NCBI GenBank assembly: GCA_024278765.1
Contig: JAJRSM010000034.1
Location: 12,051 to 76,050, forward strand
DNA length: 64,000 nt
Direction of reading: 5' to 3'
DNA from: Deltaproteobacteria bacterium
GTDB lineage: Bacteria; Desulfobacterota; GWC2-55-46; DRQE01
Shown: positions 11,757-44,040 of the stretch, piece after piece
Layout of the letters: every line of letters begins with the position of its first letter
Position numbering within the stretch: position 1 is the stretch's first letter
Notes under the pieces: generated by a model
What the model was told of the DNA's origin: nothing
Database searches by the model: none
The model's input: only the letters and a program-made list of their open reading frames with translations
Translations under genes and position numbers: made by a program

Positions 11757-12251
11757 ATGAAGGTTAAGGGAAGTGTTTGGAAGTTTGGAGCTGATGTTGA
11801 TACCGATAGGATAATTCCTGCCAGGTACTTAAATACCTCTGACCCAAAGGAGTTGGCAAAGTGTTGTATGGAGGATGCCGACCCTGAATTCAGCAAGCAT
11901 GTCGAAAAGGGAGACATCATAATGGCCGATAAAAACTTCGGTTGCGGGTCTTCGCGCGAGCATGCGCCTATATCAATAAAGGCCAGCGGCGTTTCGTGTG
12001 TTATTGCAAAAAGCTTTGCCCGTATCTTTTACAGGAATTCTTTTAATATGGGGCTGCCTATCCTTGAATGCGCCGAGGCCGTTGACGGAACAAAGGCCGG
12101 AGACAAAGTAGAGGTTGACATGGGCAAGGGAGAGGTATATAACATAACTCGAAAGAAGACTTATCAGGCACGCCCAGTGCCACCCTTTATGCAGGAACTG
12201 GTAGGGGCCGGAGGCCTTATGAAATGGATAAAAAAAAGGGGGAAGGTATGA
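11757..12251 (+). CDS. leuD: 3-isopropylmalate dehydratase small subunit
   Basis: 164 aa; 'GSVWKFGADVDTDRIIPARYL' and 'NFGCGSSREHAP' aconitase swivel-domain motifs. Confidence 0.95.
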   Translation: MKVKGSVWKFGADVDTDRIIPARYLNTSDPKELAKCCMEDADPEFSKHVEKGDIIMADKNFGCGSSREHAPISIKASGVSCVIAKSFARIFYRNSFNMGLPILECAEAVDGTKAGDKVEVDMGKGEVYNITRKKTYQARPVPPFMQELVGAGGLMKWIKKRGKV

Positions 12252-12523
12252 GAAAGGAGAACGCTAAAAGCACTATTCTTTACACTGACAAGCTCCATAT
12301 TGAGAGCAAGACTCTTTTTCTTGATCTAAAGGAAAATGCCGGCGGTAAGTTTCTCCAGATAGCTGAGCTATCGAATGCAAGAAGAAGTACGGTCGTTATA
12401 CCCTTAAGCGGCTTTAATGAATTTATGCAGACCTTGCAGAAGATGTCTATTGAGCATCGCATCAGCGAGGGTGAGTTAGACGAAAAAGAGATCAGTGGAG
12501 AGGGAATCCTTGAAGAAGTATAA
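12248..12523 (+). CDS. PUR-alpha-like single-repeat nucleic-acid-binding protein (DUF3276 family)
   Basis: '[29 protein letters not shown]...[19 protein letters not shown]' fits the PUR-repeat pattern (Bpur/DUF3276). The ATG at 12248 overlaps the leuD stop as ATGA and follows an AGGGGGAAGG RBS. The ORF track starts at 12224. Confidence 0.55.
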
Positions 12524-14028: not shown

Positions 14029-14280
14029 TTAAACTGCTCTTTCTTCAGGGTATACATAGACAGGGACAGTAACGGTTTTCTCTGCCTCTTCCTTTGTTAG
14101 TATCTTATGTTCGATTTCTTTTGATACTTCTGCAATCAGATATTTTTCACCACATTGTTGGCATACCCCTGCAGGTACGTCTTGGAATATGTATAATTGT
14201 TCTTTGTAGCGGTAGTCCAGCTCGACTTTTTCCGGGCTTACTTGACCTCCGCACTGTGAACAGTCTCCGTATTTATGCAT
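14029..14280 (-). CDS. YgiT-type zinc-finger protein (MqsA-like N-terminal domain), putative antitoxin
   Basis: 83 aa with two CxxC pairs ('CSQCGG...CQQCGE'), matching the YgiT-type zinc-finger family (N-terminal zinc-ribbon domain of MqsA antitoxins). Starts 6 bp downstream of the DUF4258 gene. Confidence 0.6.
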   Translation of the reverse strand: MHKYGDCSQCGGQVSPEKVELDYRYKEQLYIFQDVPAGVCQQCGEKYLIAEVSKEIEHKILTKEEAEKTVTVPVYVYPEERAV

Positions 14281-14285
14281 TTTAT

Positions 14286-14597
14286 TTACTCCTTTTCGGT
14301 TCTCGTTCTGTCGTTAGTCCATTTCGGTTTTTTTGGTAAATAGACCGTTAGTATCCGAATCCACTGGTTAGTCGAATATCCACATACTATGTGTATGGGT
14401 TTATTGTCAGAATAGCCTAAGATCAGACAGCTTTTTCCTCTTTGGTCATTAGGATAGTTCTCTAATATTTCGCCGTTTAAAATAGCTCTTTCCAAATCCT
14501 CTATTGTTATATCTTCTGCGTATCTTTCTTTTTCGCCGTGGAGGCTAATCTCATATTTGTTGGTTTGTATCTTTAATTTAATCTCTGCCATCTCCAT
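14286..14597 (-). CDS. DUF4258-family protein, putative toxin partner of the YgiT-type antitoxin
   Basis: 103 aa; the size and the 'SCLILGYSDNKPIHIVCGY' core resemble DUF4258 proteins, which are usually encoded immediately upstream of YgiT zinc-finger genes. Confidence 0.5.
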   Translation of the reverse strand: MEMAEIKLKIQTNKYEISLHGEKERYAEDITIEDLERAILNGEILENYPNDQRGKSCLILGYSDNKPIHIVCGYSTNQWIRILTVYLPKKPKWTNDRTRTEKE

Positions 14598-14641: not shown

Positions 14642-16933
14642 CTACCTCCCCAGCCATCTCTTCAGCACCATAATCGCCGTTCTTTTATCCAGCGGTTCGT
14701 TGTTGTTACCGCAGTGGGGGTCCTGGGTGCACGACGGACACGAGACCACGCAGGGGCAGTCCTCCATAAGTTCTAATGTCGCCTCAAACCAATGTTCGAC
14801 CATATCAAAGCCACGCCCTGTCAGGCCTATACCACCCTCAACGCCGTCGTAGATAAAGATCGCCGGCTGCTCTAGGTCAGGATTAATCGGGAAGTAACTG
14901 ACCCCTCCCAGATCATTGCGGTCACAGATGGCAAAGAGCGGCAGGGCTGCGATCTGAGCGTGTTCAAGGGCGTGCATGCCTCCTGCGCCGTCGTAGCCGA
15001 GCTCTTTGGCCTCAAGCAGTATATCTTCACCGACCGTCATCCAGACGCCCTTTGTCGTAAAGACATGCGGCGGCAGGTCCAGATAGATCTCGTCTATAAC
15101 CTTCCTTGTATTTATATCTTTTTTCATATAACCCAACACAGTCTCGGTCGTCCTTAGCGTACCTCGGCTTATAACAAGGCCGCCAGAGCCAACTGATTTT
15201 TCGCTGTCGATAGACAGAATCTCGGTATCCTCGTCACTAAGCGGGGTTGTGTAGTAATTCAGATCGACCTCCTGGCAGAAGACCTCTTTATCGCCCAGAT
15301 GCAGGCCCGTTACCTTATACTGCGAGCCACGGTGCAGGTAGATCGCACCCGGGTGCAGCTCTCGCAGGACACGCGTAGAGTCGGCCTCACCGAGCAGCGT
15401 CTTATCGTCTGCGATTATCCTGAAGGCACTTCCCGTGCCTCTAATCGATACGCCGTTATGTGGACGGCGACTGCGAGTTATCCATGTTTTTTTAACCGGC
15501 AGATACAGAACCCTTTTATCGCGCGTGAGTGTTTTTAGTGCCGGCTCTATATCTTCCCGATCAAAGACCTCTTCGGTGCTCTCCATCGGAACCTCGCTAA
15601 AGGCGCAAGGCAGGTGTGCTTCCAGTATTGGCAGGTTTGCTGTATCCAAAGTTGCGGCCTCTACGTTACGTCTGAAAAAATCAGTCGGATGGCGCATAAA
15701 GTATTTATCTAGTGCGTCTTCTATGGCGATCATTATAATAAGGGACTCTCGTCCTTTTCGTCCGACGCGTCCGGCGCGTTGCCATGTAGAGCTTATAGTC
15801 CCGGGATAACCGATCAGTATGCATACGTCAAGGCCGCCGATATCAACGCCTAATTCCAGTGCGCTCGTTGTGATCACTCCGTGCAGTTCGCCGCTGAAGA
15901 GTCGCGCCTCGATCTCTCGGCGTTCTTCGGGCAGGAAGCCCGAGCGGTAAGAGCTTACTACTTGGGTAAGTTCAGGGCGGCCCTGCGAGACCCACCGATA
16001 TATAAGTTCTGTAATTTTACGAGACTTTGTAAAGGCAATCGTCTTAAAACCCTGTTCGACCGACTCGCAGAAGAGTTTTGTCGCAACCGAGTAGGGGCTC
16101 TGGCCTTCTTCCGGGTCAATGAAGATAAAGTTGCGTTTACCCTGCGGTGCGCCGGACTCGGTTATGGCCTGAAACGGCAGGCCTGTGAGACGCTCTGCGA
16201 GTTCTATTGGATTTGCTATAGTCGCTGAGCAGGTTATGAACTGCGGGTCTGCATCGTAAACGGCTGCGATTCTGCGAAGTCTTCTGATAAGTTGCGCTAC
16301 GTGCGAGCCAAGCACACCACGGTATGTGTGGAGTTCGTCTAATACGATATACTTCAGACCTTTGAAAAACTCCGCCCAGTTCTGATGAAAGGCGCAGATG
16401 CCGAGATGGAGCATATCAGGGTTTGTTAGTAGGATGTTCGGTGGCTTCTCACGAATCTTTTTGCGCTTATAATCGGTCGTATCACCGTCGTATATAGCCG
16501 CGATATTTTTATGGTCAATCCCTTCTATTGATTTGGTGAATTCATTGATACCCTTTAGCTGGTCCTGCGTAAGGCTCTTGAGCGGAAAGATATATAGAGC
16601 GTGTGCCTCAGGGTCATTCAAGACCGCCTCAACAACAGGGATGTTATAGATCAGGCTCTTACCACTTGCCGTCGGGGTCATTACAACGACGTTCCTGCCT
16701 TCTCTGATCAGGTTTATAGCATCGGTCTGATGAGAGTAGAGTTTTTCGCGGTCAATGGCCGCAAGGTTTTGCTGGAGTGCATCCGGCAGGGGTTTTTTAA
16801 GCGCACCGTATACGGGGGCTATAGCTCGCAGTTCTTCGTGATGAACGAGCTGGCGCAGGTCTTTACGGGTCTTGAGTTCTTTAATTAGAGTTGATATATC
16901 TTTTTTCATAGCGTCAATGTATGGAAAGCTCAT
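14642..16933 (-). CDS. MrfA/YprA-like superfamily-2 DEAH helicase with C-terminal DUF1998 zinc-binding domain
   Basis: 763 aa; Walker A 'TPTASGKS', 'DELH' motif II, 'SAT' motif III, HELICc; the C-terminus 'CPCVVSCPSCTQDPHCGNN' is the four-Cys DUF1998 signature. Confidence 0.8.
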   Translation of the reverse strand: MSFPYIDAMKKDISTLIKELKTRKDLRQLVHHEELRAIAPVYGALKKPLPDALQQNLAAIDREKLYSHQTDAINLIREGRNVVVMTPTASGKSLIYNIPVVEAVLNDPEAHALYIFPLKSLTQDQLKGINEFTKSIEGIDHKNIAAIYDGDTTDYKRKKIREKPPNILLTNPDMLHLGICAFHQNWAEFFKGLKYIVLDELHTYRGVLGSHVAQLIRRLRRIAAVYDADPQFITCSATIANPIELAERLTGLPFQAITESGAPQGKRNFIFIDPEEGQSPYSVATKLFCESVEQGFKTIAFTKSRKITELIYRWVSQGRPELTQVVSSYRSGFLPEERREIEARLFSGELHGVITTSALELGVDIGGLDVCILIGYPGTISSTWQRAGRVGRKGRESLIIMIAIEDALDKYFMRHPTDFFRRNVEAATLDTANLPILEAHLPCAFSEVPMESTEEVFDREDIEPALKTLTRDKRVLYLPVKKTWITRSRRPHNGVSIRGTGSAFRIIADDKTLLGEADSTRVLRELHPGAIYLHRGSQYKVTGLHLGDKEVFCQEVDLNYYTTPLSDEDTEILSIDSEKSVGSGGLVISRGTLRTTETVLGYMKKDINTRKVIDEIYLDLPPHVFTTKGVWMTVGEDILLEAKELGYDGAGGMHALEHAQIAALPLFAICDRNDLGGVSYFPINPDLEQPAIFIYDGVEGGIGLTGRGFDMVEHWFEATLELMEDCPCVVSCPSCTQDPHCGNNNEPLDKRTAIMVLKRWLGR

Positions 16934-17139: not shown

Positions 17140-17448
17140 ATGACGATCTTTAGATGCCAGAGTTGTAGAAGAGAATTGCCGCGTGAAGGCATAAAATACG
17201 TTGTAGAGGTCAGGAGTTTTGCTGATTTTGACGGCTATCTGGAAGAATATCCAGGTGATATTGATGATGGTTTAGAGGAACTTCTGGATGCAATGGAGAA
17301 TATAGATCCATGCACGATGGAGGACGATGTCTATATGGAGCATACCTATATCGTATGTAAGTCTTGTAGAGACCGCTTTGCAAGAGATCCTTTTCATACA
17401 GAGACCTTTGCCGAGGCAGAAGAGATCGCCAAGGGAACACTGCATTAA
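17140..17448 (+). CDS. Hypothetical acidic zinc-ribbon protein
   Basis: 102 aa with 'CQSC' near the N-terminus and 'CKSC' near the C-terminus. Has its own promoter and RBS and is followed by a strong terminator. No family recognised. Confidence 0.5.
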   Translation: MTIFRCQSCRRELPREGIKYVVEVRSFADFDGYLEEYPGDIDDGLEELLDAMENIDPCTMEDDVYMEHTYIVCKSCRDRFARDPFHTETFAEAEEIAKGTLH

Positions 17449-17505: not shown

Positions 17506-18228
17506 GTGGTTTGCTGCGCACGGTAAAGAACAACCTAACATGTCACCCTGAACTTGATTCAGGGTCTGTATTTGTTTTTGCGCAAGGTGATAAAGCAAGA
17601 ACAGATGCTGAACTAAATTCAGCATGACAAATAGGGTGTTTAGTTATAATCGTTGCTGATAACTATCTGGCGATTTTGCGACAAAGGTGCTTTGCTCTGC
17701 GCAGGAGTTTGCCCCACCGCAGGTGGTGCTGCGCACGGTAAAGAACAACCTAAGATGCCACCCTGAACTTGATTCAGGGTCTGTATTTGTTTTTGCGTAA
17801 GGTGATAAAGCAAGAACAGATGCTGAACTAAATTCAGCATGACAAATATGGTATTTAGTTGTAATCGTTGCTGATAACTATCTGCTGATTTTGCGACGAA
17901 GGTGCTTTGCTCTGCGCAGAAGTTTGCCCTACCGCAGGTCGGCTTCCCCTAGGTGGGCGTTTGTAAGGTCGGCAAAGTGTTTTAAGATGGTTCGGAAAGG
18001 CGCGTAGCAGGGTGTGACCCAATGAATTTGTCCCACCGCAGGAGTTTGCCCCACCGCAGGTGGTGCTGCGCACGGCAAATTAATCAATATGATTAATTAC
18101 TACGCGTTGCACGGAACTTTCTGATGCGCTTCGCTCACCGCAGGTGCGCAAAGTAAATGCATTAACCAGGTTTTGTCTTTGCGGCGAAGCCGCTTTGCTC
18201 TCCGCAGGAGTGCCGCCCCGCATGGGGC
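17506..18228. repeat. Complex non-coding repeat locus. A ~215-bp unit is tandemly duplicated (17513-17727, 17728-17942), with a third partial copy from about 18065. Each unit carries hairpins CCCTGAA-cttga-TTCAGGG and ATGCTGAA-ctaaa-TTCAGCAT and multiple CACCGCAGGTG motifs.
   Basis: Read directly. Units are more than 95% identical. Minus-strand ORFs 17640..17840 and 17855..18073 are near-identical repeat artefacts. The locus lies between convergent genes. Confidence 0.75.
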
Positions 18229-19002
18229 TTATTTGCCGAGCGGTAGGCGTTTTGCATTTATATCGGGCAGGCCGGCGGCTATGATTTTTTCTGCTGTTGT
18301 TTTGAAATCATAGCCGACCAGGTGGAATTCTATTTCATATGTTGCGGAGTTAAAGGTAAGAAAGCCTGCCCTTGGATCTCCGTCTCGTGGCTGCCCTACA
18401 GAGCCCGGATTTATGAGGTATAGCTTGTCTTTTTCGATCTTGATTTTTTCTTTGTGAGGTGTTGGCAACTCTTTGATTGTATCTTCGATATGGTCAAGGG
18501 TTGAGTCTCCTGTCGGGGTTAAAGAGTATATACTCCTTCTGTGTGTATGCCCCAGAAATGCCAGAGGCAGGGTGCGGGCATCCAGCATTAGCTTGAAGGC
18601 AGCGGCTGCTGCGTATTTTGAACTTATATATTTATTTGTTATATCTTTTGGTGAGTGTAAGGCTATGAAGAGGTTGTCAACTGCGATCTCTGGTGGAAGA
18701 TCTTGTAGGAAGTCTTTATTTTCTTTTGTTAGTCTTTCCCTAGTCCATAGGATGGATTTTTCTGCTGGCTCGTTAAGGTTGTAAGGATCAGTCGTTGATA
18801 CCGCCTCTTCGTCGTGGTTGCTGGCTATGGCGGTTATCGCCAGGTCTTTTATCAGGGCCACGCACTCGTTCGGGTCAGCATTGTAGCCGACTATATCGCC
18901 GAGACTTACAATGCGGTCTACTTCCAGCTCACTGACGTGGTTAAGCACGGCGTGTAGGGCCGCAATGTTTGAGTGTATGTCTATGAGCACTGCGTAGCGC
19001 AT
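18229..19002 (-). CDS. Metallophosphoesterase (calcineurin-like, YfcE/MJ0936-type)
   Basis: 257 aa; 'DIHSNIAALHAV', 'GDIVGYNADP' and 'GHTHRR' are the metal-ligand motifs of the calcineurin-like phosphoesterase fold. Confidence 0.75.
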   Translation of the reverse strand: MRYAVLIDIHSNIAALHAVLNHVSELEVDRIVSLGDIVGYNADPNECVALIKDLAITAIASNHDEEAVSTTDPYNLNEPAEKSILWTRERLTKENKDFLQDLPPEIAVDNLFIALHSPKDITNKYISSKYAAAAAFKLMLDARTLPLAFLGHTHRRSIYSLTPTGDSTLDHIEDTIKELPTPHKEKIKIEKDKLYLINPGSVGQPRDGDPRAGFLTFNSATYEIEFHLVGYDFKTTAEKIIAAGLPDINAKRLPLGK

Positions 19003-24549: not shown

Positions 24550-24897
24550 TTGATTTGCAGGTTGAACGTACTGTTAATATCTGTCTTTGCAATTAGCGTC
24601 CCTATCTTAAATGATAATTTCAGGTCTAATTGGGATCTGTCTTCCAGTAGAGCGGGAAGTCTGGTTAGTTATTTTGTAGAGAAAGCCGGCTTACCCCCCG
24701 AGCGTTTTACTGCCACCGGAATTTCACAGTACCGCCCTATAGCCAGCAACGCAACCTCTGAGGGCAGGGCCGCCAATAGAAGGGTCGAGATAAAGCTGTC
24801 GGCCCAGTATCTACTGTTGGCTCAGCAGGCGTTGGTCTTAAGGTTAGCAAATTTGTTTTTGTCCATGATAGAAATGAAAAAGCCCCGATTCAGGTGA
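24550..24897 (+). pseudogene. Remnant of a MotB/OmpA-family C-terminal peptidoglycan-binding domain (last ~85 aa only)
   Basis: 'ISVPILNDNFRSNWDLSSSRAG...NATSEGRAANRRVEIKL' matches the end of MotB/OmpA_C. Upstream in frame are TAA and TAG stops, then ridA, so the domain N-terminus and the whole N-terminal part of the protein are absent. Confidence 0.4.
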
Positions 24898-25911: not shown

Positions 25912-26191
25912 TTGTTGCACTCCTTTTGTTTTTTTGTTGTTATGCTGAACTTGTTTCAGCATCTGTTTTGTTTTTTGTCGAATAAAGACAGATCCTGAAA
26001 TAGATCTCGTAGCCGTTTTAGATGGTCGGGATGACAAGTCTGGTATGTCTTTTGTATATTGTCGTAGCTGTCTGAGACGGTTTATCGCCAGTCTGGGACA
26101 GGTTGTCGTTATTATCTATTTTCATGTTACGTTAGTACTTTGAAGTTACTACAAAAATGGTGCTGAGGCAAGTAATCTTGAAGGGTTTTTG

Positions 26192-26668
26192 TTACGAGAT
26201 GCCGATGGTCTCTATATTATTTAGCCTGAGCAGTGCGGTCGTAACGCCCGAGCCTTCGCAGTCTTTATTACCTTTCTTTATGACAGTTACTCCGCAGGAC
26301 GGGCTCTTTTCCTTTAGATAAGCCCGAGTCGCAAGGTTCTCCCGTGCTATGCGCAGGGTCTCTTCTGCACCTTTGATGAAGCTTTCGGTAGTGTCTTTGC
26401 TGTTTACGTTCATAACTCTAGCCTTCCCGTCCAATACAGAGGCCCCGTCTGTGTTTCCTATTATTGAGCCGCCGTCGCCTGATCCTTTTATCTCGGCAGC
26501 CGGGCGAGGCGTGCCGAGCCCTCCCAGCTCTTCCGGGCAGACGGCAATGACGACCTTGCCGGCAAGCTTACTTATAAGGTCGTCGTTTTTAGAATGCCCG
26601 CCATCGTAACGCGTCGGTCTGCCGAGCAGGCAGGAGCTTACGATTACTTTCTCAGCTTTTTTTGACAT
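26192..26668 (-). CDS. DUF523 protein (TudS-like [4Fe-4S] thiouracil desulfidase family)
   Basis: 158 aa; the N-terminal 'VSSCLLGRPTRYDGG' is the DUF523 signature. Confidence 0.55.
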   Translation of the reverse strand: MSKKAEKVIVSSCLLGRPTRYDGGHSKNDDLISKLAGKVVIAVCPEELGGLGTPRPAAEIKGSGDGGSIIGNTDGASVLDGKARVMNVNSKDTTESFIKGAEETLRIARENLATRAYLKEKSPSCGVTVIKKGNKDCEGSGVTTALLRLNNIETIGIS

Positions 26669-26717
26669 TAATTATATGGGTTGTGTCTTGCTGCTTATGA
26701 GTTTTTATTTATCAGGT

Positions 26718-27353
26718 CTAGTATGTGCTGGGATCTATAGTCTTCTTTTTTACCACGACCCTGCGCCCTGCGACTTCAAGGCGGCCTTTGCTAAAGAGGC
26801 GGATTGCTTCGGGGTAGATGCGGTGTTCTTCTTTTAGGATGCGTTTGCTCAGGCTCTCGTCGGTGTCGTCGTCTTCTACAGCAACAGCCGCCTGAATAAT
26901 AATCGGGCCGGTATCGACGCCAGCGTCTACAAAATGAACGGTACAGCCTGAGAACTTTACGCCGTAGTCGATTGCCTTCTGCTGAACGCCAAGGCCCGGA
27001 AATGCAGGAAGTAGCGACGGATGGATATTCATTATGCGAAGCGGAAAGGCCTCTATAAGCGGCTTTGTGATGATTCGCATAAAGCCGGCGAGGGCTATGA
27101 GGTCAATACTATTTTCTTTTAAGATCTCGACGACCTTTTTGTCGAAAAGGTCTCTTGTCAGGTAGTCGGCCTTGGTGACGACGGCGGTCTTAATGCCGTG
27201 CTTTTTGGCGCGTTAAAGGGCGTAGGCCCCTGGCCTGTCGCTTAAGACCAGAGCGAGTTCAGCTCCGAGCGTTCCAGCCTCTGCCGCGTCTATTATAGAT
27301 TGCAGGTTTGTTCCGCCCCCAGATGCAAGTACTGCTATCCTAGTCATAGTCAT
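26718..27353 (-). pseudogene. purN: Phosphoribosylglycinamide formyltransferase PurN, reading frame interrupted by a single in-frame TAA (27213-27215) where a Gln codon is expected
   Basis: The minus-strand translation from ATG 27351-27353 (overlapping the purM stop as TAATG) reads MTMTRIAVLASGGGTNLQSIIDAAEAGTLGAELALVLSDRPGAYAL*RAKKHGIKTAVV... and continues in the same frame to 26718 ('NIHPSLLPAFPG' formyltransferase motif). The rest of the protein is intact. Confidence 0.7.
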
Positions 27354-28441
27354 TATTGGTCGCCACTGAGTCTGAGAGCGTGCTGGCCCTTTTTTCTTTC
27401 TTCTATTGTGCCGATCAGGTAGGCTCGTTCGCCGAGCTTTTCAAGCTTGTCGAGTGTCTTCTGCGCATCACGCTTTGCGACGATCAGCACCAGCCCTATG
27501 CCGCAGTTAAAGGCGCGTAGCATCTCTTTTTCATCGATATTACCGCCCTTCTGTATTATATTAAAGATAGGTAGTATTGGCCAAGAGCCTTTCTCGATTA
27601 CGGCCTTTGTGTTGTTCGGCAAAACACGAGGGATGTTTTCAATTATGCCACCGCCGGTTATATGCGAGATGGCCTTGAGCTTTATATCTTTGTTGAGTGC
27701 AAGGACGGTCTTTACGTAGATGCGCGTCGGCGTTAAGAGCTCTGAGCCGATTGTCTTTCTAAGGCCTTTCGGGCGATCTGATAATTTAAGTTTAAGTCTA
27801 TTGAAAATCACCTTTCTGGCAAGCGAGTAGCCGTTGCTATGCAGCCCGCTTGAGGCGATACCTATGATGGAATCACCTGGACGGATTTTTTTGCCGTCTA
27901 TGATCTTTGACTTATCGACGACCCCTACTGAGAAGCCAGCCAGATCATACTCGCCTGCCTCGTAGAGCCCCGGCATCTCGGCTGTCTCTCCGCCTATGAG
28001 TGCGCATCCAGCGTCCTTACAGCCGCGAGCTATGCCTCGCACAACAGCAGCGGCCTTCTTTGCGCGGAGCGAGCCGGTCGAGAAGTAATCAAGGAAGAAT
28101 AAGGGGCGGGCCCCTGTGGTGACGATATCATTTACGCACATCGCTACTAGATCTATGCCGATGCTGTCGTGTTTATCTGCCATAAAGGCGATTTTCAGCT
28201 TTGTGCCGACGCCGTCGGTCCCTGAGATAAGGACCGGGTTTTTAATACCTTTAAAATTGCCGGAAAAAGCCCCGCCAAAGCCGCCTATGCCGCCTATGAC
28301 GCCGCTGGTGTAAGTGCTCTTGGCCAGAGGCTTTATCATCTTAACAAGTCTTTCTCCCTCGGTAATATCCACGCCTGCGTCTTTGTAGGTCATTGTTTTT
28401 TTCATATTAACAAGATTAATCCATGGGCTTTTCAAAGTCAA
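27353..28441 (-). CDS. purM: Phosphoribosylformylglycinamidine cyclo-ligase (AIR synthetase)
   Basis: 'YKDAGVDITEGERLVKMIKP' and 'GGIGGFGGAF' PurM signatures. The true start is probably internal (M13 or M17 of the ORF). Confidence 0.9.
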   Translation of the reverse strand: MTLKSPWINLVNMKKTMTYKDAGVDITEGERLVKMIKPLAKSTYTSGVIGGIGGFGGAFSGNFKGIKNPVLISGTDGVGTKLKIAFMADKHDSIGIDLVAMCVNDIVTTGARPLFFLDYFSTGSLRAKKAAAVVRGIARGCKDAGCALIGGETAEMPGLYEAGEYDLAGFSVGVVDKSKIIDGKKIRPGDSIIGIASSGLHSNGYSLARKVIFNRLKLKLSDRPKGLRKTIGSELLTPTRIYVKTVLALNKDIKLKAISHITGGGIIENIPRVLPNNTKAVIEKGSWPILPIFNIIQKGGNIDEKEMLRAFNCGIGLVLIVAKRDAQKTLDKLEKLGERAYLIGTIEERKKGQHALRLSGDQ

Positions 28442-28755
28442 CGATATTAATACTTAAAATCTTTCATTAAATTGACAGTCTATACCCCTAGAGTGCACAT
28501 AAAACTGGGCGTAGGTGTGGCGATAACTGTGCAGTTTACTTGATTACTTTGCTTGTTAAAGCCCCCTCTAGAATCTAAGTCTTTGTTTTTAAAGGAGTTT
28601 GCCATATGCCAAGAAGTTGGCACAGGTATTGCATTTAAAGTATAAACAGTATATGCGACTTTTTTTGATTTTAGTACTATAAATACATAACATCGCAGAA
28701 ATATCTCCACCAAGCAACATACATTGTTACGACAGTGGGTTTTATGCGAGCAAGA

Positions 28756-28766
28756 GGGGGGGGGGG
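28756..28766. repeat. Homopolymeric G11 tract forming the spoVG ribosome-binding site
   Basis: Read directly: GAG-G11-C-ATG. It makes the ORF track extend the N-terminus artificially (MGFMRARGGGG). Confidence 0.8.
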
Positions 28767-28767
28767 C

Positions 28768-29085
28768 ATGCAGATTACCGAGGTGAAGGTCTTACCGGTC
28801 AATGGGGATGAGAGATTAAAAGCATTTGTTAGTATTAAGTTGGATGCCTGTTTTGTAGTACGAGATATGAAGATAATTGCTGGAAATAATGGACTTTTTG
28901 TGGCAATGCCTGCAAAAAAGATGAAGGATGGTACTTATAGAGACCTCATTCATCCGCTGGATCAGCAGACCAGAGAGATGGTTGAAGGGCTTGTATTGGA
29001 CGAATATAAGAAGGTTACCTCAGATAATGTCAAAAAATTCTCAGTCGTAGAGAGTACTCAGAGCAAGCATGTAGCTACTCTATAA
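28768..29085 (+). CDS. spoVG: Septation protein SpoVG
   Basis: 'MQITEVKVLPVNGDERLKAFVSIKLDACFVVRDMKIIAGNNGLFVAMP' is near-canonical SpoVG. Confidence 0.85.
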   Translation: MQITEVKVLPVNGDERLKAFVSIKLDACFVVRDMKIIAGNNGLFVAMPAKKMKDGTYRDLIHPLDQQTREMVEGLVLDEYKKVTSDNVKKFSVVESTQSKHVATL

Positions 29086-37925: not shown

Positions 37926-39059
37926 ATGAAAGAACGTAAAAAAGCAATGCTTGTATTATCGGACGGAACGGTCTTTGAGGGTTATTCTTTAGGCGCGGTC
38001 GGCGAAGCACCGGGCGAGGTCGTCTTTAATACCTCGCTTATGGGTTATCAGGAAATCTTGACCGATCCGTCGTATAAGGGCCAGATAGTCACGATGACCT
38101 ATACCGAGCAGGGAAACTACGGGGTGAACCTTGAAGACATCGAGTCTTGCAAGCCATGGGTAAGCGGCTTTATCGTAAAGCAGGCCTGCGCCTACCCGAG
38201 CAGTTGGCGTAACAATAAAAAAGGCGGCATGACGCTCGACGCATATCTTAAAGAGAGCAATGTCGTTGGTATTGAAGGTATAGATACCCGTGCGCTTACT
38301 CGTCATATCCGCAAAGAGGGAGCAATGCCAGGCATTATATCTTCGGTTGACCTTGATGCAGAGAGCCTCTATAAGAAGGCCATGGCGATACCAACGCTCG
38401 CCGGGCAAGACCTCGCAAAAGAAGTCACCTGTAAAGAACCATACCAGTGGACAGAAGGGCTCTGGGATATGGAGAATGGGTATTGCGAAGACTCGGAAAA
38501 ACCAAAATATAAAGTCGTTGCCTTTGACTTCGGAATAAAATTTAATATTCTGCGCTCGCTCGTCAGTACTGGCTGCGAGGTGACGGTCGTCCCTGCCAGC
38601 ACTACGGCAGCAGAGGTTATGGAGATGAACCCGGACGGGATTTTCCTCTCTAACGGTCCGGGCGATCCCGAGCCCGTAGACTATGCACAGAAGACGATTA
38701 AGGAACTCATAGGTAAAAAGCCAATCTTTGGAATATGTCTTGGTCATCAGCTGCTGAGCCTAGCCCTTGGCGGCAAGTCATTTAAACTCAAGTTCGGCCA
38801 TAGGGGCGGTAACCAGCCCGTGATGGATCTGACGACTAGGAAGGTCGAGATAACCTCGCAGAACCACGGCTTTGCAATAGACGCAGACTCGATGGAGGGG
38901 CTCGCCGAGCTTACGCACATCAACTTGAATGACAAGACCGTTGAAGGGATTCGTGGTGAGGCCAGAAAATTATTTACGGTACAGTACCACCCCGAGGCCT
39001 CTCCCGGCCCACATGACTCGCATTACCTCTTTAAGAGGTTTACCGATATGATGGGGTGA
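37926..39059 (+). CDS. carA: Carbamoyl-phosphate synthase small (glutaminase) subunit
   Basis: 377 aa; CPSase_sm_chain N-domain plus class-I GATase ('GICLGHQLL' catalytic Cys, 'HPE'). Confidence 0.9.
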
Positions 39060-39100
39060 GGGGTTGATAAGTTTTACCTTAACTAGATTTGGAGGTTACT

Positions 39101-40189
39101 ATGTCTAAAAATTTGATTGATATTGAAGAGGCAACTTATCAAGAGGACGACTGCGATGAAGTGCCACCTACAGATATAGTAGCTTATAATGAACTACGTT
39201 CTTGTGCAGACCTTTTTAGGATGCAAACGAAAGGTATGTTAGATATAAAACCAGAGTTTCAGAGAGAGGTTGTATGGAAGAAACCAGCACAAACTCGTTT
39301 TATTGATTCACTTATGAAAGGATTGCCAATTCCTAGCATGTGTTTTAGTTTTGACCATAAGACACAAAAGTGGCAAGTGATAGACGGCTTGCAAAGAATG
39401 TATACTATTATAGCGTTTTTATCAGGATCAATAGGAACTTTATCTAAGCTGAACGATATAGATCAGAGAATTTCTGGCCAGCCTTTCTATAAATTTGAAG
39501 GTGTTGATTCAGAGTTGTATTCCTATCTTACTCGTGTTGAAAATTTAACTTTGCCAATTACTGTTTTGAGATGTGATTATAGCAAGAGAAGTCATATGGA
39601 ATATCTTTTTACTATATTTCATAGGTTAAATGCTGGAGGAATGAAGCTTAACAATCAGGAAATTAGGAACTGCATATTTAGCGGTAGTTTTAATCGTTTG
39701 CTAAATGAGTTAAACGATACTAGTAGTTGGTTGAAAATAAATAGGATTAAAAAAAGTGTGGGGCATCGTTTCACTAAACAAGAGTTGATTTTAAGGTTTT
39801 TTGCTTTTTACGATTCTTATAATAACTATGATGGAAAACTTGCACGTTTTTTGAATTATTATATGGAGGATAACAGGAATCCTAGTGATGAATTTTTAGC
39901 GAATAAGAAAGAGATTTTTCAGCAAACAGTTGACGTGCTGAATGTGAATATCTTTCAAGGAAAAGTGCCTCCTAAGCTAGGTATAACAGTGTTAGAAGCA
40001 CTACTTCTTGGGGTTGCTTTTAATCTTCGAACTATTAGAAAAAAGTCTGATTCAGAGATTAATGCAATGTACTTTAAAATATTGCATCATGAAGAATTTT
40101 CAGAGAATAAACTCATGGAAGGAATCTCACAGAAGTCAAGAGTACAAGGGAGAATCAAAGCAGCAAAACAAATATTTTCTGGTAAGTAG
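39101..40189 (+). CDS. DUF262-domain protein (GmrS/ParB-like NTPase-nuclease superfamily N-terminal domain)
   Basis: 'KPEFQREVVWKKPAQTRFIDSLMKGLPIPSMCF' and 'VIDGLQRMYTI' match the DUF262 signature (YQR..W ... IDGQQRLTT). GGAGG RBS 6 nt before ATG 39101. AT-rich relative to flanking carA and carB. Confidence 0.75.
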   Translation: MSKNLIDIEEATYQEDDCDEVPPTDIVAYNELRSCADLFRMQTKGMLDIKPEFQREVVWKKPAQTRFIDSLMKGLPIPSMCFSFDHKTQKWQVIDGLQRMYTIIAFLSGSIGTLSKLNDIDQRISGQPFYKFEGVDSELYSYLTRVENLTLPITVLRCDYSKRSHMEYLFTIFHRLNAGGMKLNNQEIRNCIFSGSFNRLLNELNDTSSWLKINRIKKSVGHRFTKQELILRFFAFYDSYNNYDGKLARFLNYYMEDNRNPSDEFLANKKEIFQQTVDVLNVNIFQGKVPPKLGITVLEALLLGVAFNLRTIRKKSDSEINAMYFKILHHEEFSENKLMEGISQKSRVQGRIKAAKQIFSGK

Positions 40190-40191
40190 AT

Positions 40192-40695
40192 ATGATAGTC
40201 AAAGGCTATATTCGTGATAATTTAGACAGGTTGGAGAACCTATATTATGTAGATTCAGCTGGTCTTGCTGGATTTCTTTACTCTAAATTGGCAATTCTTG
40301 AGCTCGGTGGTTGGGCTGAAGAGTCAATGGAAGATATTGTTTTGAGGCATGCAAAACGTCATCTAAGAAAGGAGCTTAAATTTAATAGTTTTAAGAAATA
40401 CCATGTTGATAAAAACCATGGTTTTCATTACGAGAAAAACTTTTTCGTAATGTTAATAAAACTTATTGGCATTGTCAATGTTGAGCGCATTGAAAGAAAG
40501 ATTGATTTGTTAAGATTTGACCAGATGAAGTCAGCCTTAAGTACTCTTAAGTACAGTCGTAATAGTTTAGCACATACGCACACTAAGGGAATTACTGTAA
40601 CTATAGATACACCATCTATAACGAAGAAATCTTTCGTGCGTATATTAGAAGGTTTTAAAGAGTTTGATAATATTTTAAGAACTTTAAGTTTCTAA
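40192..40695 (+). CDS. Small HEPN-like protein (Rx4H motif; resembles the MAE_28990/MAE_18760 HEPN-like nuclease family often found beside DUF262 genes)
   Basis: 167 aa, predicted helical; 'SRNSLAHTH' near the C-terminus is an Rx4-6H HEPN-type motif. The start codon is 2 bp after the DUF262 stop. Family assignment is by recollection, not by search. Confidence 0.45.
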   Translation: MIVKGYIRDNLDRLENLYYVDSAGLAGFLYSKLAILELGGWAEESMEDIVLRHAKRHLRKELKFNSFKKYHVDKNHGFHYEKNFFVMLIKLIGIVNVERIERKIDLLRFDQMKSALSTLKYSRNSLAHTHTKGITVTIDTPSITKKSFVRILEGFKEFDNILRTLSF

Positions 40696-40731: not shown

Positions 40732-43700
40732 TTGCCAAAACGTACTGACATAAAAAAGATATTATTAATCGGCTCTGGTCCAATCGTAATCGGGCAGGCC
40801 TGCGAGTTTGATTACTCCGGTACGCAGGCCTGCAAGTCGCTTAAAGAAGAAGGCTACGAGGTTGTCTTGATAAACTCGAATCCGGCGACGATTATGACCG
40901 ACCCGAACCTTGCTGATAAGACCTATATTGAGCCGCTCTCAGCCGATATGATCGCAAAGGTAATCGAGCGAGAACGTCCGGATGCTCTGCTGCCGACGAT
41001 GGGCGGTCAGACCGCTCTGAACGTAGCGATTGAGCTTGACGAGATGGGCGTCCTTGAGAAGTTCAATGTCGAGCTGATCGGTGCTGGCATCGAGGCGATA
41101 AAAAAAGGCGAAGATAGAGAGCTATTTAAAAAAGCTATGGAGCGTATCGGACAAAAAGTCCCAAGCGGCGGCTTTGCAACTACATTCGATGCTGCATGCA
41201 AGGTCGTCGAGCAGTTTGATTACCCTGTGATCGTAAGGCCGTCTTTTACCCTTGGCGGCACAGGCGGTGGTATCGCCTATAACCGTGAAGAGTTTGAGAA
41301 GCTCGCAAAGCACGGAATAGACGCAAGTCCGACTGACGAGATACTTATAGAAGAATCGGTGATTGGTTGGAAGGAGTTTGAGCTGGAGGTAATGCGCGAT
41401 ACCAAGGACAATGTCGTAATTATCTGCTCGATTGAGAATCTAGATCCGATGGGCGTGCATACAGGTGATTCGATAACCGTTGCTCCGGCGCAGACCCTCT
41501 CGGATAAAGAATATCAGCTTATGCGCAACGCGTCTCTGGATATTATTCGAGAGATCGGCGTTGATACCGGCGGCTCTAATATACAGTTCTCGGTCAATCC
41601 AAAGACAGGTGGTATATATGTTATCGAGATGAATCCGAGGGTCTCAAGGAGTTCTGCTCTGGCCAGTAAGGCAACCGGCTTTCCGATAGCCAAGATCGCT
41701 GCTAAGCTCGCCGTTGGTTATACCCTCGATGAGATACCAAACGATATAACAAAGATGACGCCAGCGTCATTTGAGCCGACGATTGATTATGTCGTAACAA
41801 AGATTCCTCGTTTTACCTTTGAGAAATTCCCGCATGCCGACTCTGTCTTGACCACCCAGATGAAGAGCGTTGGTGAGGTTATGAGTATGGGGAGGACCTT
41901 TAAAGAATCATTTTTAAAGGCTCTGCGTTCCTTAGAGACAGGCGTTTCAGGGCTTGACCCGATTGTGCGCAAAGATCGCTCGGAGGTCTTTTTTGAGGTT
42001 ACAGAGGAAGAGGCCGAGGAGATCTCTACGAACCTGAAGGTCCCAAGGGCCGAGCGTATGTACTACGTTGCCGATGCCATGCGTTCCGGTATGACTGTGG
42101 AGAAGGTTCATGCCCTGACAAATATTGATATGTGGTTCTTAAATAATATACGAGAGATCGTCGAGCTTGAGGGTGAGTTATACGAGGAAAGTAAAAAAGG
42201 CGAGTTGACTAACGCCTCGATACGTGCGGCAAAGGAGTCTGGTTTTTCTTACACAACGCTTGCGCGTATTACAGGCGAGGCAGAGTCGGCTATAACAGCG
42301 CGTGCGCACAAGGCCGGAATCAGGCCAGCGTATAAGTGTGTCGATACCTGCGCTGCTGAGTTCGAGGCACATACGCCGTATCTCTATTCTACATATGAGC
42401 GGCCTTTCTATAATATAAAAGACAAGACCGAACCAGCAGTCGAGTGCGAGGCAGCACCGACCAGGAATAAAAAAGTAATGATTCTTGGAAGCGGTCCGAA
42501 CCGAATCGGTCAGGGTGTTGAATTTGATTATTGTTGCGTCCATGCAAGCTTCGCCCTTAAAGAAGAGGGCATTGAATCGATAATGCTCAACTGTAACCCA
42601 GAGACGGTATCGACTGATTACGATACCTCTGATAGGCTTTATTTTGAGCCGCTTACCTTTGAAGATGTCATGGCCGTCATAGAACGAGAAAAGCCCGACG
42701 GCGTTATCGTACAGCTTGGCGGGCAGACCCCGCTTAAGTTATGCGTAGCTCTCGAGCGTGCAGGGGTGAAGATCCTTGGCACTACGCCTGACTCAATAGA
42801 TGAGGCCGAGGATAGAGAACGTTTTGATGCGTTATTAGAGAAGCTGAAGTTAAGACGACCCGAGAGCGGGCTTGCGCGTAGCACAGAAGAGGCCGTAGCT
42901 GCTGCAAATAGTATTGGATATCCAGTTATGGTAAGGCCGTCTTACGTGCTTGGCGGTCGGGCAATGGAGATCGTCTTTAACGAAGATAGCCTCAATGAAT
43001 ATATGGCGCGTGCCGTGCAGGCCTCGCCCGAGCATCCTGTGCTCGTCGATAGATTCTTAGTAGGGGCAACTGAGGTTGATGTCGATTGCGTAAGCGACGG
43101 CGATCTTGTAGTGATCGGAGCTATCATGGAGCATATAGAAGAGGCCGGTGTCCATTCCGGCGACTCGGCCTGCTCGTTACCACCGTACTCACTTAGCAAA
43201 GAAAGTCTAGCAGAGATTACGAGGCAGACCAAGGCACTGGCAAAAGAGCTAAAGGTTGTTGGTCTTATGAATGTTCAGTTTGCGGTAAAGGACGAGGTGA
43301 TCTATATCATAGAGGTCAATCCGAGAGCCTCCCGTACCGTACCGTTTGTCAGCAAAGCAATAGGGCGTCCTCTGGCCAAGATCGCAACGAAGGTTATGAT
43401 AGGTAAGACATTAACTGAGCTTGGCTTTACCAGGCAGATCCATCCGCCGTACGTCTCTGTCAAAGAAGCTGTCTTTCCGTTTATAAAGTTCCCGGGTGTT
43501 GATACTATTTTAAGCCCAGAGATGAAGAGCACCGGTGAGGTGATGGGTGTTGGTGACGGCTTTGGCAAGGCCTTTGCAAAGGCGCAGATAGCCGCCGGTA
43601 ATACCCTGCCGCTTGTGGGTAATGTATTTGTAAGTGTCAGAGATGCTGATAAAGAAGGGGTCTTGCATGTTGCCAGAGAATTAAAAGAGATGGGTTTTAA

Positions 43701-44040
43701 TATCCTGGCGACGCGCGGTACGGTACGGTTTTTGGCCGAGCATGGCGTAGAGACCGAGTATGTTCATAAGGTAAATGCAGGGCGGCCTCATATCGTAGAT
43801 GAGATAAAAAGTAAAAAGGTTGCGATGGTTATTAATACATCCTTTGGCGCAAAGAGTGTTGCTGATTCTTACTCTATTAGGCGAAGCTCGATAGAGAATG
43901 GCGTGCCGTACTTTACTACCATCGCCGGTGCGCATGCAGCGACTCGCGGCATAAAGGCAAAGAAAAAAGAAGCCCTCGATGTTATGAGTCTTCAGGAGTA
44001 TCACGAGCAGAACGAGGCTGCGATAAAGGCCTCGCTCTGA
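40732..44040 (+). CDS. carB: Carbamoyl-phosphate synthase large subunit
   Basis: 1102 aa; duplicated ATP-grasp halves, oligomerisation domain, MGS-like C-terminus. TTG start after an AAGGAG RBS. Confidence 0.95.

What the first reader, a model, noticed from the sequence alone, without database searches (positions are those of the whole stretch)
27201..27227. purN carries a single in-frame TAA at a conserved Gln position; otherwise intact
Translating the minus strand from the purM-overlapping ATG (27351-27353) gives a canonical PurN N-terminus, then TAA at 27213-27215 where PurN proteins have Gln (CAA) in '...AYAL-Q-RAKKHG...'. The reading then continues in frame through the complete formyltransferase domain. 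Possible explanations are a very recent nonsense mutation (purT could compensate), a sequencing or assembly error, or low-level readthrough. The ORF track shows only the downstream two-thirds.
Basis: seen in the sequence. Interest (0 to 1): 0.5.

Follow-up and report, generated by a model that had tools for sequence, protein, structure and literature searches.

The report
Single premature stop in purN
A purine-synthesis gene (purN) in one metagenome-assembled bacterial contig has a single premature stop codon but is otherwise intact; this is either a very young knockout or a base-calling error, and in both cases it is ordinary.

Summary
On the minus strand purN runs 27353..26718. Its ATG shares one base with the purM stop (TAATG). 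Codon 47 is TAA (27215-27213). Read through the stop, the translation matches PurN (TIGR00639) end to end without indels, and the catalytic Asn/His/Asp residues are kept.

One detail is wrong. Position 47 is not a conserved Gln. In 120 homologues it is Glu 85, Lys 25, Gln 4. The four nearest relatives have GAA, GAA, GAG and CAG, so GAA->TAA is the most parsimonious change.

The gene shows no decay. Its dN/dS against relatives is 0.10-0.14, compared with 0.07-0.165 between intact pairs. It has no excess of private substitutions, and its gene neighbourhood is conserved.

TAA is not recoded: it ends 20 of the 51 other ORFs I took as genes in the window, including purM. No other gene in the window is interrupted.

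The two fragments (46 and 120 aa) occur only on one 80,034-bp NCBI contig among about 15 billion proteins. No orthologue has a stop at this position, so this is not a lineage feature.

The event is therefore very recent and belongs to one assembly. It is either a real nonsense allele, tolerated if purT or purine salvage is present, or a consensus error. Sequence alone cannot separate these two. Interest is low.

The parts
26718..27353 (-). purN (phosphoribosylglycinamide formyltransferase), 211 codons plus the final TAG, interrupted at codon 47
   Evidence: end-to-end match to TIGR00639 (234.6 bits) and PF00551; all columns that are invariant in the 23-sequence alignment A1 are kept, including N109, H111 and the SGGG-N loop.
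27213..27215 (-). in-frame TAA (codon 47); TTA on the plus strand
   Evidence: Relatives have GAA, GAA, GAG or CAG at the aligned codon.
27216..27353 (-). N-terminal 46 codons. They carry the predicted GAR phosphate-binding loop (S11-G12-G13-G14-T15-N16). The gene caller reports them as a 46-aa product.
   Evidence: PurN positions 2-43, E 3.2e-10. (P0242, a singleton from the 80,034-bp contig).
26718..27212 (-). open frame after the stop (164 codons). It carries the catalytic N109, H111 and D147. The first ATG/GTG/TTG is at 27080 (M92), which gives the 120-aa ORF.
   Evidence: the 120-aa piece matches PurN positions 89-190. (P0241, a singleton). Residue mapping to E. coli PurN with an offset of 3 comes.
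27353..28405 (-). purM (AIR synthetase), intact, 350 aa. Its TAA stop overlaps the purN ATG by one base.
   Evidence: P0121 is 100% identical, 350 aa, on one NCBI contig of 80,034 bp.
26192..26668 (-). downstream gene of the same conserved cluster (PF04463, 2-thiouracil desulfurase family / DUF523), intact
   Evidence: The synteny is seen in L081, L082, L088 and L090.

Best explanation
A single base substitution, most parsimoniously GAA (Glu) to TAA, has very recently turned codon 47 of a previously functional purN into a stop in the population behind this one metagenome-assembled contig. Inferred: translation ends after 46 residues. That separates the GAR phosphate-binding loop (residues 11-16) from the catalytic Asn109/His111/Asp147, so no active GAR transformylase is made from this allele. 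Inferred and not tested: the cell survives because the step can be done by the formate- and ATP-dependent PurT, or because purines are salvaged. Shown: the gene identity, the single lesion, the lack of any other decay, normal use of TAA as a stop, and the restriction of the stop to this one assembly.
For: There is one stop and no indel in a full-length PurN match. The gene was under purifying selection until very recently. dN/dS of the window against four relatives is 0.10-0.14, compared with 0.07-0.165 among intact pairs. Private substitutions at conserved columns are 1, 2 and 5 at the three thresholds, against means of 1.2, 2.0 and 5.2 for 120 intact homologues. Private amino-acid changes number 7, against 4-10 in relatives, and purM as a control gives 10 against 7-11. 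The SpoVG | purM-purN-PF04463-MBL-L28 neighbourhood is conserved, with intact 203-205-aa purN genes in the relatives. The assembly looks clean: none of the other ~55 ORFs taken as genes in 64 kb is split, no base is ambiguous, and Pfam matches are full length. This lowers the prior for a base error. The stop is in the deposited contig. purN and purT are individually dispensable in E. coli (PMC2242838), and purT presence varies among the Geobacter species compared in PMC2700814.
Against: There is only one assembly of this organism, so nothing independent confirms the base. No purT lies in the window and the rest of the genome is not visible. A real null in a strongly conserved core gene is expected to be rare or short-lived. 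A G->T change is also a typical oxidative library artefact (my own knowledge, not tested here).
Confidence: 0.5

Rival explanations
1. Sequencing or assembly artefact. The organism has an intact purN with Glu or Gln at codon 47. The T at minus-strand 27215 would be a consensus error, or a minority or damaged-template variant that the assembler picked up.
For: Everything except this one base looks like a working gene under selection. The fragments are singletons from a single 80-kb contig, with no second assembly. A single substitution from the codon found in relatives is enough.
Against: No other sign of base-level error appears in 64 kb. There are no split or frameshifted genes and no ambiguous bases. 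The site is not in a homopolymer or repeat. Polished consensus sequences rarely carry isolated substitutions (general knowledge).
Confidence: 0.37
2. Functional stop. The UAA would be read through at a useful rate by a near-cognate or suppressor tRNA, or translation would re-initiate downstream. Either way some active PurN would still be made.
For: The codon lies at a variable position (E/K/Q/D), so several insertions would be tolerated. C follows the stop, and this is reported as a weaker termination context in E. coli (my own knowledge). A modest local fold exists around the stop (z = -2.49).
Against: TAA ends 20 of 51 ORFs taken as genes in the window, 5 of them followed by C, and one is purM, which lies 138 nt upstream of the in-frame stop. 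No tRNA gene lies in the window and there is no Rfam element. No orthologue has a stop at this position, so nothing indicates selection for it. The hairpin lies in the G-A-Y/F-A-L coding sequence, which is nearly identical in relatives that have a sense codon at this position. The first in-frame ATG/GTG/TTG after the stop is M92, with no Shine-Dalgarno-like sequence that I could see. A product starting there would lack the N-terminal subdomain.
Confidence: 0.04
3. Old pseudogene. purN would have been dead for a long time in this lineage and be decaying.
For: There is one private change at a nearly invariant column, P158A (117 of 120 homologues have Pro).
Against: dN/dS and private-substitution counts cannot be told apart from those of intact orthologues. 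There are no indels. The start codon, the purM overlap and the catalytic residues are kept. Three other homologues also lack Pro at that column.
Confidence: 0.03

Closest known systems
PurN, folate-dependent GAR transformylase (TIGR00639; solved structures 3auf, 2ywr and E. coli 1c2t/1cde)
   Same: Full-length sequence match of 234.6 bits. The nearest solved structures match at E 5.6e-69 (3auf) and 8.8e-63 (2ywr), with Glu at the aligned position in both. The catalytic Asn/His/Asp residues and the substrate loop are kept, and the gene is coupled to purM as in relatives.
   Different: The reading frame is broken by TAA at codon 47. Pro158, which is nearly invariant, is Ala.
Young single-lesion pseudogenes, or nonsense alleles, of redundant metabolic genes (for example purN in genomes that also have purT)
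   Same: There is one nonsense substitution and no other decay. The step is known to be redundant where purT is present (PMC2242838; PMC2700814).
   Different: Redundancy in this genome is unproven, because no purT lies in the 64 kb available. The allele is seen in only one assembly.
Stop-codon reassignment or programmed readthrough
   Same: The only shared feature is an in-frame stop inside a conserved gene.
   Different: TAA works as the main terminator here. The stop is not conserved in any orthologue. No suppressor tRNA or known RNA element was found.

Membership tests
PurN (TIGR00639 equivalog) | Whole-protein score above the curated cut-off, with an end-to-end alignment | tested here: met
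   234.6 bits against a cut-off of 150.1, profile positions 2-190 of 192, with the stop entered as X.
PurN (TIGR00639 equivalog) | Catalytic Asn-His-Asp (E. coli N106/H108/D144) and the N-terminal GAR-binding loop are present | tested here: met
   N109, H111 and S11/G12/G14/N16 are invariant columns, and D147 is nearly invariant; the window keeps all of them. The offset of 3 to E. coli 1c2t comes. The roles of these residues come from established PurN literature (my own knowledge).
PurN (TIGR00639 equivalog) | Uninterrupted reading frame that encodes both subdomains in one polypeptide | tested here: not met
   TAA at codon 47. The gene caller yields a 46-aa and a 120-aa product.
PurN (TIGR00639 equivalog) | Genomic context: purM-purN translationally coupled pair | tested here: met
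   Searches show the TAATG overlap. The same overlap is visible in L001. In L081, L082, L083, L088, L089 and L090 the called purM ends on the base where purN starts.
Stop-codon recoding / programmed readthrough | The stop codon is conserved at the same site in orthologues | tested here: not met
   all 120 homologues have a sense residue. The truncated products are singletons among about 15 billion proteins.
Stop-codon recoding / programmed readthrough | The codon is not used as a normal terminator elsewhere in the genome | tested here: not met
   TAA ends 20 of 51 ORFs taken as genes in the window, 5 of them in the TAA-C context.
Stop-codon recoding / programmed readthrough | A cognate suppressor tRNA or a stimulatory RNA element is present | tested here: inconclusive
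   No tRNA and no Rfam family in the 64 kb. The local fold has z = -2.49 and lies in coding sequence shared with relatives. The rest of the genome is not available.
Decaying (old) pseudogene | Relaxed constraint: raised dN/dS, excess private substitutions, multiple lesions | tested here: not met
   (omega 0.10-0.14, against 0.07-0.165 for intact pairs). (1, 2 and 5 private substitutions, against means of 1.2, 2.0 and 5.2). (7 private changes, against 4-10). (a single lesion).

The most novel reading that the evidence does not exclude
The TAA is real and fixed, and the cell still makes enough full-length PurN by near-cognate readthrough of UAA-C at a substitution-tolerant position. A variant reading is that this uncultured bacterium, whose nearest relatives in the searches come from hydrothermal-vent metagenomes and are labelled Thermodesulfobacteriota, has just become dependent on PurT or on purines from its community.
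Probability: 0.05. Interest if true: 0.35.

Novelty: already known. Interest (0 to 1): 0.1.

Why it matters
It matters little beyond annotation. If the stop is real, this population lacks folate-dependent GAR transformylase and must rely on PurT or on purine salvage. That would be a small point for metabolic reconstruction of an uncultured Thermodesulfobacteriota-like lineage. If it is an error, it is a reminder that a single-base nonsense call in a metagenome-assembled genome should not be read as gene loss. Neither outcome bears on an open question.

Tried and rejected
1. I looked for an independent copy of the same strain.
- Exact-product look-ups of the 120-aa fragment, the PF04463 protein, L28 and PurM P0121 in the contig index found nothing.
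- The genome-contig scan gave 81% identity at best.
- A degenerate 32-nt pattern spanning the codon in metagenome contigs gave 4 loci. All have GAA or GAG and none is the same species.
- The protein collection does hold PurM at 100% identity and both purN fragments, but only from one 80,034-bp NCBI contig with no accession shown.

2. I tested genome-wide recoding and rejected it on stop-codon usage. A scan for other in-frame-stop-split genes found that only purN qualifies. The other in-frame neighbours are separate genes: pyrR/pyrB, psd/pssA-like, and PD-T4-2_B/carB.

3. I looked for a suppressor tRNA or a known RNA element. None was found in the window.

4. I folded the RNA around the stop. 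It gives a modest z of -2.49, and the hairpin lies in coding sequence shared with relatives that have a sense codon there.

5. The promoter and terminator scan of 26000-28800 gave nothing that bears on the question.

6. I looked for purT in the window. It is absent from all ORFs that I scanned against Pfam. This says nothing about the rest of the genome.

7. I did not run a structure prediction. The Q- or E-substituted sequence is not a window sequence, and the PDB sequence alignment already places the residue.

Full report
**Observation.** The minus strand of the window reads ATG ACT ATG ACT AGG ... GCC TAC GCC CTT TAA CGC GCC AAA AAG CAC GGC. The TAA is at 27215-27213. The mechanical ORF list shows a 46-aa ORF at 27213..27353 (-) and, in the same frame, a 120-aa ORF at 26718..27080 (-). 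Translating 27353..26718 gives 211 codons with one internal stop, at codon 47. The ATG at 27353-27351 shares base 27353 with the TAA stop of the upstream gene.

**Identity.** With the stop entered as X, the product matches NCBIfam TIGR00639 (PurN) at 234.6 bits, against a cut-off of 150.1, over profile positions 2-190 of 192. The first 46 residues alone match positions 2-43 (E 3.2e-10), and the 120-aa piece matches positions 89-190. Pfam Formyl_trans_N is covered at positions 2-181 of 181. The nearest solved structures are PurN enzymes: 3auf at E 5.6e-69, 2ywr at 8.8e-63, and E. coli 1c2t at 9.3e-41 with an offset of 3 residues. In the 23-sequence alignment A1, the window keeps every column that is invariant. 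These include S11, G12, G14 and N16 (the substrate loop) and N109 and H111. D147 is nearly invariant and is also kept. The upstream gene is purM (AIRS and AIRS_C domains).

**The 'conserved Gln' claim.** Among the 120 best homologues the aligned residue is E 85, K 25, Q 4, D 3 and one each of T, V and G. Both of the nearest solved structures have Glu there. The aligned codons in the four nearest relatives with DNA in hand are CAG (L081), GAA (L001), GAG (L088) and GAA (L090). On dN distances, L081, L001 and L090 group together, and the window and L088 lie outside that group. The Gln of L081 therefore looks derived. GAA->TAA, a G->T transversion, is the most parsimonious origin, and CAA->TAA remains possible.

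**Is the gene decaying?** It is not. Nei-Gojobori dN/dS of the window's purN against four relatives is 0.10-0.14. Pairs of intact relatives give 0.07-0.165, and purM gives 0.05-0.09 throughout. I counted substitutions private to one sequence at columns that are at least 95%, 90% or 80% conserved. The window has 1, 2 and 5, against means of 1.2, 2.0 and 5.2 over 120 intact homologues. In the five-sequence set the window has 7 private amino-acid changes, against 4, 4, 10 and 4 for the others. purM as a control gives 10, against 9, 7 and 11. The only odd change is P158A, where 117 of 120 homologues have Pro. Synonymous divergence to the nearest relative is about 0.7-0.9. The test therefore cannot date the event finely, but it rules out a long period without constraint.

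**Context.** Four relatives share the arrangement SpoVG | purM-purN-PF04463 (2-thiouracil desulfurase family)-metallo-beta-lactamase-L28, with intact purN genes of 203-205 aa. They are 80-84% identical in PurN, come from JGI hydrothermal-vent metagenomes and NCBI MAGs, and are labelled Thermodesulfobacteriota where labelled. The window is ordinary core chromosome. It carries ilv and leu genes, relA/spoT, a class A PBP, rml genes, pyrR/pyrB/pyrC, carA/carB, recG, gdh and type IV pilus genes. A scan for in-frame segment pairs separated by one stop found no other interrupted gene; the other pairs are separate adjacent genes or shadow frames. The window has no ambiguous bases.

**Recoding or readthrough.** TAA ends 20 of the 51 ORFs I took as genes in the window. 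TAG ends 17 and TGA ends 14. Five of the TAA stops are followed by C, as here, and one of the TAA stops is purM's, which lies 138 nt upstream of the in-frame stop. There is no tRNA gene and no Rfam family in the window. The RNA around the stop folds only modestly better than shuffled sequence (z = -2.49). The hairpin next to the stop lies in the G-A-Y/F-A-L coding sequence, which is nearly identical in relatives that have a sense codon there. The first in-frame ATG/GTG/TTG after the stop is M92. A product starting there lacks the N-terminal subdomain. By inference from the established roles of the loop and the Asn/His/Asp residues in E. coli PurN, neither fragment should be active alone.

**Distribution.** The window's PurM is in the protein collection at 100% identity (P0121). 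It is a single member from one NCBI contig of 80,034 bp. The 46-aa and 120-aa purN products are also there, each a singleton from that contig. The stop is therefore in the deposited assembly. Nothing within 90% identity of either fragment exists elsewhere among about 15 billion proteins. Searches for a second assembly of the same organism failed. The stop belongs to one assembly and is not a lineage feature.

**Explanation.** Two ordinary readings remain. Both say the gene was functional until very recently.
- (a) A real, very young nonsense allele in the sampled population (0.5). I rank it slightly higher because the surrounding 64 kb shows no sign of base-level error. In addition, loss of purN is known to be tolerated where purT is present (PMC2242838), and purT presence varies among the Geobacter species compared in PMC2700814.
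- (b) A consensus error or minority variant captured by the assembler (0.37).

Sequence alone cannot separate these. Read pile-ups and the gene content of the rest of the genome would. Functional readthrough (0.04) and an old pseudogene (0.03) are disfavoured by the tests above.

**Novelty and score.** A single nonsense codon in a biosynthetic gene of a metagenome-assembled genome is a known and common kind of observation. There is no evidence of any new mechanism. Interest is 0.1.

Noticed in passing
window 39089-40695 (+): A two-gene defence system lies between carA (37926-39059) and carB (40732-44040). It consists of PD-T4-2_A (366 aa, E 5.5e-154, full length; GmrSD_N/DUF262 domain) and PD-T4-2_B (167 aa, E 7.7e-53). 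Its GC is 0.33, against about 0.50 for carA and carB, which suggests a horizontally acquired insertion that splits the car operon.
   Followed up: partly
window 17512-18211: Two tandem direct repeats of about 213-215 nt (17512-17724 and 17727-17939, 95% identical), with partial further copies at 18037-18079 and 18163-18211. They lie in the gap between a 102-aa ORF with no Pfam match (17140-17448) and a metallophosphoesterase gene (18229-19002). There is no Rfam match.
   Followed up: partly
window 14029-14597 (-): A DUF4258 protein (103 aa, 14286-14597) is followed by an 83-aa ORF with two CxxC motifs (14029-14280). The pair looks like a toxin-antitoxin module and lies next to a DEAD-box helicase with a C-terminal MrfA Zn-binding domain (14642-16933). 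Neither small ORF has a PADLOC match.
   Followed up: partly
window 12224-12523 (+): A 99-aa ORF with a PurA ssDNA/RNA-binding family match (PF04845, E 1.1e-9) sits between the Aconitase_C (leuD-like) gene and the Iso_dh (leuB-like) gene and overlaps both.
   Followed up: no
window 26880-26882 (-), purN codon 158: Ala where 117 of 120 PurN homologues have Pro. This is the only private change of the window's purN at a column that is at least 95% conserved.
   Followed up: partly
window 24550-24897 (+): The OmpA-family ORF (115 aa, TTG start) matches only profile positions 47-98 of 98. The syntenic gene in L081 is 140 aa, and L081 has an extra 68-aa ORF between it and the L-PSP gene that the window lacks.
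   Followed up: no
window 1-64000: GC skew is positive in all but one of the 2-kb windows (G 17194 against C 12969 overall), and most genes are on the plus strand. This fits a single leading-strand replichore segment.
   Followed up: no
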